IMG/VR virus record: IMGVR_UViG_2778260994_000001
From: a virus
Lineage: Duplodnaviria; Heunggongvirae; Uroviricota; Caudoviricetes
Strand: one strand, 5' to 3'
DNA: 64,000 nt
How positions within the stretch are numbered: the stretch's first letter is position 1; every line of letters begins with the position of its first letter. The notes below the pieces were generated by a model that ran no database searches, was not told the DNA's origin, and saw only the letters and a list, made by a program, of their open reading frames with translations. Made by a program: the position numbers and the translations under genes. Below, piece after piece: positions 26,066 through 27,040 of this stretch.

Positions 26066-27040
26066 TTATCCGTTACCGCACGACGGTTTCTGCGTGATAA
26101 ACGTCTCAAGCATCTTTTCCGCAATTGCCGACCAGGTGTGACACTGGACCTTTTCAGCATTTTTCACGCGATCAACGCGAGCAATAACCTCATCCCAATC
26201 AATCCGCGACTTGATAACCATATGGTTCACCAACTCCAGGCGATCCGGCGGAAGGCAATCGGGCGGCGTTAATATCAACGCTCCACACATTGCCGCCTCA
26301 AGAACAGTTAATCCAAGGCTTTCGGGATGCGTAACGATAAAAACGTCACTCTTACGCAATTCAGCTGCAAATTCGGTTGCTGGTACCGGCGTCCGTCTGT
26401 ATGGGATTACCGATATATTCCCCGGGTCAATGGTAATCAATCCGTCATCGGTCAACGTTCTGGCCTCATACGGAACGGCCAGGCGCTGAAGGTTCATAAG
26501 GATACTTAAGGAGTGATCAAAACCACTAACATCAAATGCCGCATGGTCTACAAAAATACGCAGAACATCGTCTGTTTTGGTTTCCAGATGGAACAGCTCC
26601 TGATTCGCTGCCCATCCAACATGTTTGTTAAAACGATTATGACGCTCTAACCTGCCTGGATTATCCAGGTACCGCCAGGTATCATCGCGGACAGTAAAAG
26701 TAATATCGACTGGTGCCGAATCCAGCATAGAACCGTCGTATACCTGGGCTACCCATCCAGTGAATCGACGACGCAGTTGCACGCCTATTTCCCTGGGCAC
26801 CGTAGTAAAATACCTCAATCCTGGTGCCAAAATGGCCTTCGCAGAACATGCGGTCGCAGCAGTCAACACAGCTTCAACATAATCCTCCGGGCTTTCGACG
26901 CCGGGGGAATATGGACGATGGTATTGCAATGTAACCCCTGCCTCACTAAAGGCGCAGGCCAGGTTATAAGCCCACATTTCCGTATATGTTTTCACATCAC
27001 TGATAGCTTCAAATTTTCGCCCAATGATCAGGATGTTCAT
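26066..27040 (-). CDS. GT-B fold glycosyltransferase (GT4-like)
   Basis: C-terminal GLTVLEAAMCGALIL resembles the conserved EAxxxG segment of group-1 glycosyltransferases. Confidence 0.6.
   Translation of the reverse strand: MNILIIGRKFEAISDVKTYTEMWAYNLACAFSEAGVTLQYHRPYSPGVESPEDYVEAVLTAATACSAKAILAPGLRYFTTVPREIGVQLRRRFTGWVAQVYDGSMLDSAPVDITFTVRDDTWRYLDNPGRLERHNRFNKHVGWAANQELFHLETKTDDVLRIFVDHAAFDVSGFDHSLSILMNLQRLAVPYEARTLTDDGLITIDPGNISVIPYRRTPVPATEFAAELRKSDVFIVTHPESLGLTVLEAAMCGALILTPPDCLPPDRLELVNHMVIKSRIDWDEVIARVDRVKNAEKVQCHTWSAIAEKMLETFITQKPSCGNG

What the first reader, a model, noticed from the sequence alone, without database searches (positions are those of the whole stretch)
26066..27040. 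GT-B fold glycosyltransferase gene downstream of the ban helicase
A 324-aa product with a GT4-like C-terminal EAxxxG segment lies at the end of the ban operon, convergent with the baseplate operon across a bidirectional terminator. A phage-borne glycosyltransferase could modify host surface polysaccharide or phage components; I do not recall such a gene at this position in P1.
Basis: partly seen in the sequence, partly recalled or inferred. Interest (0 to 1): 0.45.

Follow-up and report, generated by a model that had tools for sequence, protein, structure and literature searches.

The report
Phage P1 dbn glycosyltransferase gene
The flagged gene is the known phage P1 gene dbn, already annotated as a possible sugar-transferring enzyme and present in nearly all P1-like plasmid prophages; the only new point is that it seems to belong with three other P1 sugar-transferase-like genes that sit side by side in other phages.

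Summary
The ORF at 26066-27040 (-) is real: 324 aa, convergent with baseplate gene 5 across a 12-bp hairpin with T-runs on both strands. It is not new. It is P1 dbn (97% identical, same position after ban), annotated "possible glycosyltransferase" in the P1 record, "glt" in P7 and "GT family 4" in RefSeq. It occurs in 471 PLSDB plasmids (baseplate gene 6: 484). It is under purifying selection (pN/pS 0.13) and dispensable for plaque formation in published screens.

The fold call holds. The AlphaFold model (pLDDT 94.7) matches only GT-B enzymes, mostly GT4, and the EX7E motif (E240, E248) is conserved. The Pfam score is just below threshold.

Beyond the finding:
- Dbn homologues in phages almost always sit beside a PmgQ-type GT-A (GT8-like) protein.
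- In coliphage EP_H11 and a P2-like prophage they form a contiguous cassette, PmgO-like/PmgP-like/Dbn-like/PmgQ-like. P1 has all four, with dbn split off behind ban.
- Cellular homologues (40-42% identical) lie in kps-type capsule loci next to an MptE-like protein.

The acceptor is unknown. A host envelope glycan is my leading guess and virion protein glycosylation the main rival.

This window differs from P1 by a 100-aa ORF inserted between ban and dbn.

The parts
26066..27040 (-). dbn: 324-aa GT-B (GT4-like) glycosyltransferase, orthologue of P1 Dbn / P7 Glt
   Evidence: ORF. 97-98% identical to P1, P7 and RCS47 Dbn. PHROG 2518 over the full length, 2e-231. AF2 pLDDT 94.7. Foldseek PDB hits are all GT-B, mostly GT4. 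EX7E motif E240/E248 conserved.
26019..26047 (.). bidirectional intrinsic-terminator-like hairpin between dbn and baseplate gene 5
   Evidence: 12-bp perfect stem, 5-nt loop, U-rich on both strands; z = -3.4 and -2.6 against shuffles.
27037..27339 (-). 100-aa ORF inserted between ban and dbn, absent from reference P1 and P7; start overlaps the ban stop (TAATG) and stop overlaps the dbn start (ATGA)
   Evidence: DNA alignment with P1 and P7. PHROG 12809, unknown function, 9e-46. Present in 52 PLSDB plasmids against 471 with dbn and in 13 of 83 P1-like loci.
27339..28709 (-). ban, DnaB-type replicative helicase, upstream gene of the operon
   Evidence: Pfam DnaB_C 1e-107 and DnaB 5e-35; P1 annotation.
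31719..31746 (.). divalent C1 repressor operator Obanab (Op72ab) at the head of the ban operon
   Evidence: Two overlapping matches to the C1 operator consensus (0 and 2 mismatches), against 0.29 matches expected in the whole window. Same layout as annotated in P1.
17574..18275 (-). pmgQ: 233-aa GT-A (GT8-like) glycosyltransferase, the conserved partner of Dbn homologues in other phages
   Evidence: PHROG 1962 'glycosyltransferase' 2.5e-127. Invariant D79-L-D81. AF2 pLDDT 95.0. Foldseek hits to GT8-type enzymes: Skp1 GalT, WbbM, glycogenin, LgtC. Found beside or near the Dbn homologue in 13 of 14 phage-type loci.
18946..19572 (-). pmgP: 208-aa MptE-like paralogue of PmgO, member of the cassette
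   Evidence: PHROG 2111 1.5e-131. Pfam MptE-like sub-threshold, 21.6 bits. hhalign to PmgO 97%. Adjacent to the Dbn homologue in L009, L099 and L101.
19470..20132 (-). pmgO: 220-aa MptE-like / sialyltransferase-like protein, member of the cassette
   Evidence: PHROG 4603 'alpha-2,3-sialyltransferase' 4.4e-74. Pfam MptE-like 23.7 bits, below the cut-off of 34.6, though many homologues carry PF01973. Profile match to the capsule-locus MptE-like neighbours of Dbn homologues: hhalign 94.7%, E = 6e-8.

Best explanation
The gene is P1 dbn. It encodes a soluble, nucleotide-sugar-dependent GT-B glycosyltransferase of the retaining GT4 type, with an EX7E motif. It is the last gene of the C1-repressed ban operon, so it is made after infection or induction rather than in the quiescent prophage. 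It is an accessory gene: dispensable for plaque formation on laboratory E. coli, yet kept intact by selection. It most likely does not act alone. It probably works with PmgO and PmgP (two MptE/sialyltransferase-like proteins, candidates for CMP-ulosonic-acid such as CMP-Kdo transfer) and PmgQ (a GT8-like, DxD GT-A enzyme). These four form one contiguous cassette in other phages and would together build a short glycan. SHOWN: the identity with dbn, the fold, the motif, the operon position, the conservation and the gene linkage. INFERRED: the catalytic activity and the joint action of the four. MOST UNCERTAIN (about 0.35-0.4 on its own): the acceptor. I take it to be a host envelope glycoconjugate made at the cytoplasmic face, such as LPS core or a Kdo-containing glycolipid. 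Its alteration would change the cell surface that P1 and competing phages adsorb to.
For: Identity and position: 96-98% DNA identity to 18 P1-like phage records, with dbn, glt or 'GT family 4' under the match; annotations; protein 97-98% identical. Fold and motif: Pfam Glycos_transf_1 at 3e-5 over residues 221-307. The family profile hits a putative glycosyltransferase (8xsg), MshA and PimA exactly over the EX7E stretch. E240 is invariant and E248 nearly so in 66 homologues down to 28% identity. The AF2 model has pLDDT 94.7 and pTM 0.90. The top 50 Foldseek PDB hits are all GT-B transferases, mostly GT4: sucrose-phosphate synthase, GlgM, BshA, PimB', glycogen synthase. Selection: 77 of 78 copies intact, pN/pS 0.13. 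Regulation: C1 operator pair at 31719-31746 heads the operon, and P1 annotates a C1 operator upstream of pmgN-pmgQ. Module: a PmgQ-family protein lies within 10 kb of the Dbn homologue in 13 of 14 phage-type loci. The order PmgO-like/PmgP-like/Dbn-like/PmgQ-like is contiguous in phage EP_H11 (L009 6885-9580) and in a P2-like prophage (L099 4304-7044); the same four lie together in a different order in L101. PmgQ is GT8-like. Envelope-glycan acceptor: all four cellular loci with a Dbn homologue (40-42% identity for P0024 and P0026) are kps-type ABC-transporter capsule loci. There it sits next to an MptE-like/WaaZ_KDO_III-like protein, and in one locus next to KpsF, KdsA and KpsU genes for Kdo synthesis. 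In the P2-like prophage the cassette lies between portal gpQ and gpA, beside a PifA/QatA-like KAP NTPase. That is the anti-phage hotspot described in PMC9122126. T4-like contigs carry the Dbn/PmgQ pair with GT8, GT47, pyruvyl-transferase and RfbT-like methyltransferase genes.
Against: No activity, donor or acceptor has been measured for any of the four proteins. The Pfam score (24.0) is under the gathering cut-off (26.4), NCBIfam gives nothing significant, and sequence-only search of the PDB finds nothing. dbn and pmgQ knock-downs and the published set of single-gene knockouts, which showed no plaquing or antirestriction defect in 24 of 29 mutants, give no phenotype. In P1 the four genes are not contiguous, and dbn is in a different operon from pmgO, pmgP and pmgQ. 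Both operons are C1-repressed (P1 annotation). This argues against classical lysogenic conversion and leaves little time for new LPS to reach the surface. PmgO homologues sit alone in the head/neck modules of Pseudomonas phages D3 and PAJU2, one labelled 'structural protein', which points to a virion target. Structural neighbours of both Dbn and PmgQ include protein O-glycosyltransferases: Gtf3/GtfC, GlyE, glycogenin and the Skp1 GalT. PADLOC has no model matching any of the four. The assignment of PmgO and PmgP to the MptE/sialyltransferase superfamily rests on sub-threshold or profile-level matches.
Confidence: 0.6

Rival explanations
1. Dbn, with PmgO, PmgP and PmgQ, glycosylates phage virion proteins (head, tail or fibre) during lytic growth. 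This would alter stability, host range or recognition without being required for plaque formation in the laboratory.
For: Both operons are C1-repressed and so expressed in lytic development. The pmgL-pmgQ operon also carries a late promoter in the P1 annotation. PmgO homologues lie inside the head/neck gene modules of phages D3 (orf7, between the major capsid and the head-tail connector) and PAJU2 (ORF010, 'structural protein'). Foldseek neighbours include protein O-glycosyltransferases: Gtf3/GtfC for Dbn; GlyE, glycogenin and Skp1 GalT for PmgQ. From background knowledge, MptE-like Maf proteins glycosylate flagellins and mycobacteriophages glycosylate their virions.
Against: The main text of the P1 virion proteome and knockout paper does not mention Dbn, PmgQ or glycosylation. 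In EP_H11 the cassette sits in an early, DNA-metabolism region, not among structural genes. In the P2-like prophage it is in the accessory gpQ-gpA hotspot. The closest cellular homologues build capsules, not glycoproteins. The virion proteins of P1-, P2- and T4-like phages are unrelated, so no common acceptor is evident.
Confidence: 0.25
2. Dbn is a DNA glycosyltransferase that decorates phage DNA against restriction, like the T4 glucosyltransferases or the phage HY126 arabinosyltransferase.
For: It is co-transcribed with the replicative helicase ban. In T4-like contigs its homologues lie between uvsX/uvsY-like and helicase genes. The HY126 DNA glycosyltransferase (9ir0) is the fourth-best Foldseek hit (its context is in PMC13326640).
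Against: The 9ir0 match (12% identity, TMq 0.58) is no better than matches to generic GT4 enzymes, and the T4 AGT and BGT are not in the top 50. No hydroxymethylase or hydroxylase gene was seen next to any homologue. From background knowledge, P1 has no known hydroxylated pyrimidine, its DNA is a classical substrate of EcoK/EcoB restriction, and it relies on Dar proteins and methylation. Four or more transferases plus pyruvyl- and methyl-transferases in the T4-like clusters fit a polysaccharide better than a base modification. Cellular homologues lie in capsule loci.
Confidence: 0.05
3. Dbn is a catalytically dead or decaying remnant carried along with ban, or it has a non-enzymatic or structural role.
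For: No phenotype in knock-down or knockout screens. The P7 copy has a premature stop at codon 23. The Pfam score is below threshold.
Against: 77 of 78 copies are intact and pN/pS is 0.13. The catalytic EX7E residues are invariant or nearly so across homologues down to 28% identity. The model is a complete, confident GT-B fold. The gene is kept in 471 plasmids and its linkage with partner transferases is conserved in unrelated phages.
Confidence: 0.05

Closest known systems
Phage P1 Dbn (AAQ14048), P7 Glt (AAQ07543), RCS47 'putative glycosyltransferase, Dbn'; PHROG 2518
   Same: 97-98% identical protein. Same place: after ban, convergent with gene 5. Same terminator region.
   Different: Here a 100-aa ORF separates ban from dbn, and the gene starts at the second ATG of the P1 annotation (324 against 332 aa). 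The P7 copy is truncated by a stop at codon 23.
CAZy GT4 / Pfam Glycos_transf_1 retaining GT-B enzymes (PimA, MshA, BshA, sucrose-phosphate synthase, WaaG-type LPS core transferases)
   Same: Two-Rossmann-domain GT-B fold, and a C-terminal EX7E motif aligned to those of MshA and PimA.
   Different: Only 9-15% identity to solved structures. The protein is shorter (324 aa against about 350-440). The Pfam score is just below threshold. It belongs to a small separate family: 423 clusters at E <= 1e-3 among 1.84 billion representatives.
kps-type (group 2-like, ABC-transporter-dependent) capsule loci carrying a Dbn homologue next to an MptE-like/WaaZ_KDO_III-like protein
   Same: 40-42% identical Dbn homologues, and the same pairing with an MptE-like protein as in the phage cassette.
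   Different: The cellular loci have export genes (KpsM, T, E, D, C, S) and no PmgQ-type GT-A. The phage versions have no export genes and add PmgQ.
Phage seroconversion systems (GtrABC, O-antigen acetylases or polymerases of P22-like, SfV and D3 phages)
   Same: Phage-borne enzymes proposed to alter host surface glycans.
   Different: Gtr systems use a GT2 bactoprenol glucosyltransferase, a flippase and a periplasmic GT-C enzyme, and are expressed from the prophage. Dbn is a cytoplasmic GT-B in a repressor-controlled lytic operon, and no GtrA or GtrB partner is nearby.
Phage DNA glycosyltransferases (T4 AGT/BGT; HY126 5-hydroxycytosine arabinosyltransferase, 9ir0)
   Same: GT-B fold, phage-encoded, near replication genes.
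   Different: No specific similarity beyond the fold, and no base-hydroxylating enzyme in the neighbourhood.

Membership tests
P1 dbn orthologous group (PHROG 2518) | High identity over the full length to P1 Dbn | tested here: met
   97% identity to AAQ14048 over all 324 residues; PHROG 2518 2e-231, residues 1-324.
P1 dbn orthologous group (PHROG 2518) | Synteny: downstream of ban, convergent with baseplate gene 5 | tested here: met
   The only difference is the inserted 100-aa ORF.
GT-B fold glycosyltransferases | Two Rossmann-like alpha/beta domains with a C-terminal nucleotide-sugar-binding domain | tested here: met
   AF2 pLDDT 94.7, pTM 0.90. 90 PDB hits at E <= 1e-3; the top 50 are all GT-B transferases, TMq up to 0.68.
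CAZy GT4 / Pfam PF00534 Glycos_transf_1 | Score above the Pfam gathering threshold | tested here: not met
   24.0 bits against a cut-off of 26.4, E = 3.2e-5, residues 221-307 only. Some family members do pass (P0265 29.9 bits; P0298 Glyco_trans_1_2 26.9). NCBI names the cluster 'glycosyltransferase family 4 protein'.
CAZy GT4 / Pfam PF00534 Glycos_transf_1 | EX7E motif in the C-terminal domain | tested here: met
   E240-x7-E248. E240 is invariant and E248 conserved in at least 90% of 66 homologues. It aligns to the motif in MshA, PimA and 8xsg.
CAZy GT4 / Pfam PF00534 Glycos_transf_1 | Retaining transfer from an NDP-sugar donor | not testable with these tools
   Needs an enzyme assay and determination of the product's anomeric configuration.
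Phage DNA glycosyltransferase systems | Co-occurrence with an enzyme that makes a hydroxylated or hydroxymethylated base | tested here: not met
   No such gene appears among the called neighbours of homologues or in the P1 annotation around dbn and pmgO-pmgQ. The whole genome was not scanned.
Gtr-type seroconversion modules | GtrA flippase + GtrB (GT2) + serotype-specific GT-C enzyme, expressed from the prophage | tested here: not met
   Dbn is GT-B, not GT2 or GT-C. Its neighbours are ban, the 100-aa ORF and gene 5. The operon is under C1 operators.
Proposed four-gene phage cassette (PmgO/PmgP/Dbn/PmgQ) | All four families present in one genome | tested here: met
   Window: pmgO 19470-20132, pmgP 18946-19572, pmgQ 17574-18275, dbn 26066-27040.
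Proposed four-gene phage cassette (PmgO/PmgP/Dbn/PmgQ) | The four genes are contiguous | tested here: not met
   Contiguous in L009 (EP_H11), L099 (P2-like prophage) and L101. In this window ppp lies between pmgP and pmgQ, and dbn is about 6.5-8 kb away in another operon.

The most novel reading that the evidence does not exclude
dbn, pmgO, pmgP and pmgQ are the scattered parts of one so far unrecognised phage glycosylation pathway: two CMP-ulosonic-acid (Kdo-type) transferase-like proteins, a GT4-like enzyme and a GT8-like enzyme. It is shared as a cassette by P1-like phage-plasmids, P2-like prophages (in their defence hotspot) and large lytic coliphages, and in part by T4-like and jumbo phages. 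It would add a Kdo-containing oligosaccharide to the LPS core of the infected cell, masking the receptor for P1 itself and for competitors, or alternatively to virion proteins.
Probability: 0.3. Interest if true: 0.6.

Novelty: already known. Interest (0 to 1): 0.25.

Why it matters
As flagged, it matters little. The gene is a textbook-phage gene with a 20-year-old 'possible glycosyltransferase' label.

The side result is more useful. Four P1 genes of unknown function (dbn and three 'putative morphogenetic' genes) look like one glycan-building module that is contiguous in other phages and related to capsule-synthesis enzymes. That turns four separate unknowns into one testable hypothesis in the best genetic system available. 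The test is to delete all four and compare the LPS, the adsorption behaviour and the virion glycans.

Tried and rejected
- Sequence-only search of the PDB with the single protein gave only noise. The family profile was needed.
- NCBIfam gave nothing significant for Dbn or the 100-aa ORF.
- PADLOC has no model for Dbn, PmgQ, PmgO, PmgP or the 100-aa ORF.
- The simple terminator scan did not report the hairpin between dbn and gene 5. Direct folding did.
- The IMG/VR scan with the whole-family alignment returned only P1-like loci. A second scan with distant members gave 5 loci.
- The scan of species-representative genomes gave only 4 loci, one of them a 209-bp contig.
- I looked for Dbn-PmgQ gene fusions among longer family members. 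None were found. The extra domains are methyltransferase, a second GT1 domain or unassigned.
- Pairwise BLASTP of PmgO or PmgP against the capsule-locus MptE-like protein was not significant. Only profile comparisons connect them.
- The PmgO profile against the PDB gave only weak hits, though they are concentrated on GT42 sialyltransferases.
- D3 and PAJU2 were checked for the other three cassette members and have none.
- The DNA-glycosyltransferase reading and the Gtr-type seroconversion reading were considered and set aside (see rival explanations and membership rows).
- No paper in the searchable library discusses a function for dbn, pmgO, pmgP or pmgQ beyond essentiality or expression tables.
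Full report
OBSERVATION. Upstream on the same strand lie a 100-aa ORF (27037..27339) and the DnaB-type helicase ban (27339..28709; Pfam DnaB_C 1e-107). Downstream, on the opposite strand, the baseplate gene 5 homologue ends at 26020 (Phage_base_V-like). The 45-bp spacer holds a perfect 12-bp stem and 5-nt loop at 26019..26047, U-rich at its 3' end on both strands. It folds at -24.2 kcal/mol (z = -3.4) on the plus strand and -19.9 (z = -2.6) on the minus strand. The pattern scan missed it because the T-run lies inside the stem. With E240 it forms an EX7E motif.

IDENTITY. Megablast of 25900-27400 against phage records finds 18 P1-like genomes at 96-98% identity. The features under the match are 'dbn: Dbn', 'glt: Glt', 'putative glycosyltransferase, Dbn' or 'glycosyltransferase family 4 protein'.
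- In P1 (AF234172) dbn follows ban directly and is annotated 'function unknown, possible glycosyltransferase'.
- P7 calls it glt, 'putative glycosyltransferase'. RCS47 does likewise.
- The proteins are 97-98% identical.
- The window itself is 100% identical to plasmid NZ_CP009051.1 of E. coli NCCP15648, a 97-kb P1-like phage-plasmid.

This is the gene whose name means 'downstream of ban'.

PREVALENCE AND SELECTION. The gene is near-universal in this group. It is found in 471 PLSDB plasmids, compared with 484 for the essential baseplate gene 6. Among 83 P1-like loci, 78 carry a full-length ungapped copy and 77 of these are intact. The exception is P7, where TGG->TGA at codon 23 explains its shorter annotation. 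The median pN/pS among 52 distinct alleles is 0.13. The protein is therefore under purifying selection. Even so, it is scored non-essential in a P1 CRISPRi screen, which also cites an earlier knockout (PMC10695390). In the knockout library of PMC9024508, 24 of 29 mutants showed no plaquing or antirestriction defect.

DIFFERENCE FROM P1. About 275 bp are inserted just after the first two codons of the P1-annotated dbn start. This creates a 100-aa ORF whose ATG overlaps the ban stop (TAATG) and whose stop overlaps the dbn ATG (ATGA). A good AAGGAG lies 5 nt before that ATG. The insert is PHROG 12809, of unknown function. It is absent from every P1-like record in the phage collection. It is present in 52 plasmids and in 13 of 83 P1-like loci. 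In P1 the equivalent ATG (Met9 of the annotation) also has its own GAGGA. The 324-aa form is probably the true product in all of them.

IS IT A GT-B GLYCOSYLTRANSFERASE? By sequence alone the case is thin:
- Pfam Glycos_transf_1 scores 24.0 bits, under the 26.4 cut-off, and covers only residues 221-307.
- NCBIfam and single-sequence PDB searches give nothing.
- PHROG 2518 is labelled 'unknown function'.

With homologues the case becomes strong:
- A search of 5.8 billion proteins gave 74 relatives down to 28% identity.
- In the 66-sequence alignment D102, W143, A144, D175, F234, T237, H238, E240 and S241 are invariant, and E248 is nearly so.
- The family profile hits a putative glycosyltransferase (8xsg, E = 0.003) and then MshA and PimA. 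In each case the hit lies exactly over ...HPESxGLxxLEAxxxG..., aligned to their EX7E motifs.
- The AlphaFold model built on this alignment is confident (pLDDT 94.7, pTM 0.90).
- Foldseek against the PDB returns only GT-B transferases in the top 50, mostly GT4: sucrose-phosphate synthase 8e-10, GlgM, BshA, PimB', glycogen synthase.

The family is nevertheless small and separate. An exhaustive HMM search of 1.84 billion representatives finds only 423 at E <= 1e-3. Its members hover around the Pfam threshold and some pass it. I therefore call it a divergent GT4-like GT-B enzyme. The fold and motif are shown; the activity is inferred.

CONTEXT OF RELATIVES: CELLULAR. Two mid-distance homologues (P0024 42% and P0026 40% identical) lie in ABC-transporter (kps-type) capsule loci. 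The neighbours are KpsM/T, KpsC/S and KpsD, a large GT1 protein, a 319-aa protein and an MptE-like/WaaZ_KDO_III-like protein immediately upstream. One locus also has KpsF-, KdsA- and KpsU-type genes for CMP-Kdo synthesis. The only non-P1 hits among 185,579 species-representative genomes are two Brucella (Ochrobactrum) pseudogrignonensis loci with the same block. In bacteria this family is therefore a capsule-polymer enzyme paired with an MptE-like protein.

CONTEXT OF RELATIVES: PHAGE. Homologues at about 30-35% identity sit in large T4-like contigs between UvsX/UvsY-like and helicase genes. Around them are GT8, GT47, pyruvyl-transferase, RfbT-like methyltransferase and nucleotidyl-transferase/cupin genes. 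They also occur in Stenotrophomonas jumbo phages, in coliphages EP_H11 and IME392 and in a P2-like prophage.

THE PARTNER GENES. tblastn of the neighbours showed that the gene just downstream of the Dbn homologue in these phages is related to a window ORF at 17574..18275. That ORF is P1 pmgQ.
- HMM searches find a PmgQ-family protein within 10 kb of the Dbn homologue in 13 of 14 phage-type loci and in none of the capsule loci.
- PmgQ is PHROG 1962 'glycosyltransferase' and has an invariant D-L-D.
- Its model (pLDDT 95.0) matches GT8-type GT-A enzymes: Skp1 galactosyltransferase, WbbM, glycogenin, LgtC, GlyE.
- All-against-all clustering of neighbours then brought out two more families. These are the homologues of window ORFs 19470..20132 (pmgO) and 18946..19572 (pmgP).
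- In coliphage EP_H11 (L009 6885-9580) and in the P2-like prophage (L099 4304-7044) the order is PmgO-like, PmgP-like, Dbn-like, PmgQ-like, contiguous and co-oriented. L101 has the same four in another order.
- In P1 and this window the order is pmgO-pmgP-ppp-pmgQ, with dbn about 6.5-8 kb away behind ban.

WHAT PmgO AND PmgP ARE.
- PmgO is PHROG 4603 'alpha-2,3-sialyltransferase'. PmgP is PHROG 2111.
- Both give only sub-threshold Pfam MptE-like hits, as do their homologues. Many PmgO relatives carry a precomputed PF01973 hit, and one also carries WaaZ_KDO_III.
- Profile comparison links PmgO to PmgP (hhalign 97%) and to the capsule-locus MptE-like neighbours of Dbn homologues (94.7%, E = 6e-8 over 166 columns).
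- The PmgO profile's weak PDB hits are concentrated on the Campylobacter GT42 sialyltransferases, at the GxGPSL and SG..A..LG motifs.
- RefSeq already labels pmgO and pmgQ this way, one gene at a time.
- I found no paper that treats the four as a unit.

REGULATION. The divalent C1 operator Obanab is at 31719-31746, as in P1. From there the minus-strand unit runs through three tRNA genes, two small ORFs, a tRNA-Met(CAT), ban, the 100-aa ORF and dbn, to the hairpin at 26047-26019. P1 also annotates predicted sigma-70 promoters for dbn inside ban, and a C1 operator plus a late promoter ahead of pmgL-pmgQ. The module is thus switched on in lytic development rather than in the repressed prophage.

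MECHANISM. My best reading has three layers.
- Shown: Dbn has the fold and motif of a retaining GT4-like enzyme, and its gene is linked with PmgQ, PmgO and PmgP across unrelated phages.
- Inferred: it uses an NDP-sugar, and the four together build a short glycan. The MptE-like members could use CMP-Kdo, which every Gram-negative host supplies.
- Guessed: the acceptor.

I favour a host envelope glycoconjugate for four reasons. The cellular relatives are capsule enzymes. GT4 and GT8 are the families of the LPS outer-core transferases, and from background knowledge P1 adsorbs to the LPS core. In the P2-like prophage the cassette occupies the gpQ-gpA hotspot that carries anti-phage systems (PMC9122126), next to a PifA/QatA-like NTPase. 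In EP_H11 it lies in an early, non-structural region.

The main rival is virion-protein glycosylation. It is supported by lytic-phase expression and by PmgO homologues inside the head/neck modules of phages D3 and PAJU2, one labelled 'structural protein'. Protein O-glycosyltransferases among the structural neighbours point the same way.

DNA glycosylation is unlikely. The match to the HY126 DNA glycosyltransferase is no better than matches to generic GT4 enzymes. No base-hydroxylating enzyme accompanies any homologue. From background knowledge, P1 DNA is a classical restriction substrate.

A dead remnant is unlikely given the selection and motif conservation.

VERDICT. The gene is already known. 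Interest as flagged is low. The linkage of four P1 'unknown' genes into one candidate glycosylation module is a modest, testable addition.

Noticed in passing
window 27037-27339 (-): A 100-aa ORF (PHROG 12809, unknown function) is inserted between ban and dbn and is translationally coupled to both (TAATG and ATGA overlaps). It is absent from reference P1 and P7 and from all P1-like records in the phage collection. It is present in 52 PLSDB plasmids and in 13 of 83 P1-like loci. Distant homologues (33-38%) occur in unrelated coliphages and in Cronobacter phage JK004.
   Followed up: partly
L002 (phage P7) 3531-3666, compared with window 26970-27040: The P7 glt copy has TGG->TGA at codon 23 of the 324-aa frame, which is why P7 annotates a shorter protein starting at an internal Met. 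It is the only broken copy among 78 full-length ones.
   Followed up: yes
window 17574-20132 (-): pmgO, pmgP and pmgQ, named 'putative morphogenetic' genes in P1, are all glycosyltransferase-like: two MptE/sialyltransferase-like and one GT8-like. With dbn they form a contiguous cassette in phage EP_H11, in a P2-like prophage and in a metagenomic contig.
   Followed up: yes
window 28989-31061 (-): The upstream part of the ban operon differs from P1. The tciA/B/C genes are replaced by a 275-aa SPFH/Band 7 protein (29092-29919) and a 78-aa hydrophobic ORF (29900-30136). There is also an extra tRNA-Ser(TGA) at 30400-30486, beside tRNA-Asn, tRNA-Thr and tRNA-Met(CAT).
   Followed up: partly
L005, L007, L090-L092, L097, L098 (T4-like metagenomic and MAG contigs): A variable island lies between UvsX/UvsY-like genes and a DEAD/UvsW-like helicase gene. 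It carries the Dbn-like gene plus one to three PmgQ-like genes. In some contigs it also has GT8, GT47, polysaccharide pyruvyl-transferase, RfbT-like or other methyltransferases, and a cytidylyltransferase/cupin protein. This is a large phage-borne glycan-synthesis cluster of unknown target.
   Followed up: partly
L108 (Pseudomonas phage D3) 4097-4555; L109 (PAJU2) 2974-3543: Lone PmgO-family (sialyltransferase-like) genes sit inside the head/neck structural modules of D3-like siphophages. The PAJU2 copy is annotated 'structural protein'.
   Followed up: partly
L099 7644-11708 (-): A 1354-aa KAP-family NTPase with PifA/QatA-like regions lies next to the glycosyltransferase cassette in the gpQ-gpA hotspot of a P2-like prophage.
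   Followed up: no
L105 (Acinetobacter idrijaensis contig JQCU01000263.1, 209 bp): A 209-bp contig in an Acinetobacter assembly is 97% identical (protein level) to dbn residues 233-301. It looks like stray P1-like or E. coli DNA in that assembly rather than a genuine Acinetobacter gene.
   Followed up: no
window 17507-17572, 21180-21196, 15414-15430, 35252-35268 and others: Ten matches to the P1 C1 operator consensus (at most 3 mismatches) occur in the window, against 0.29 expected. I did not find one at the position where P1 annotates Oppp, upstream of pmgN.
   Followed up: no
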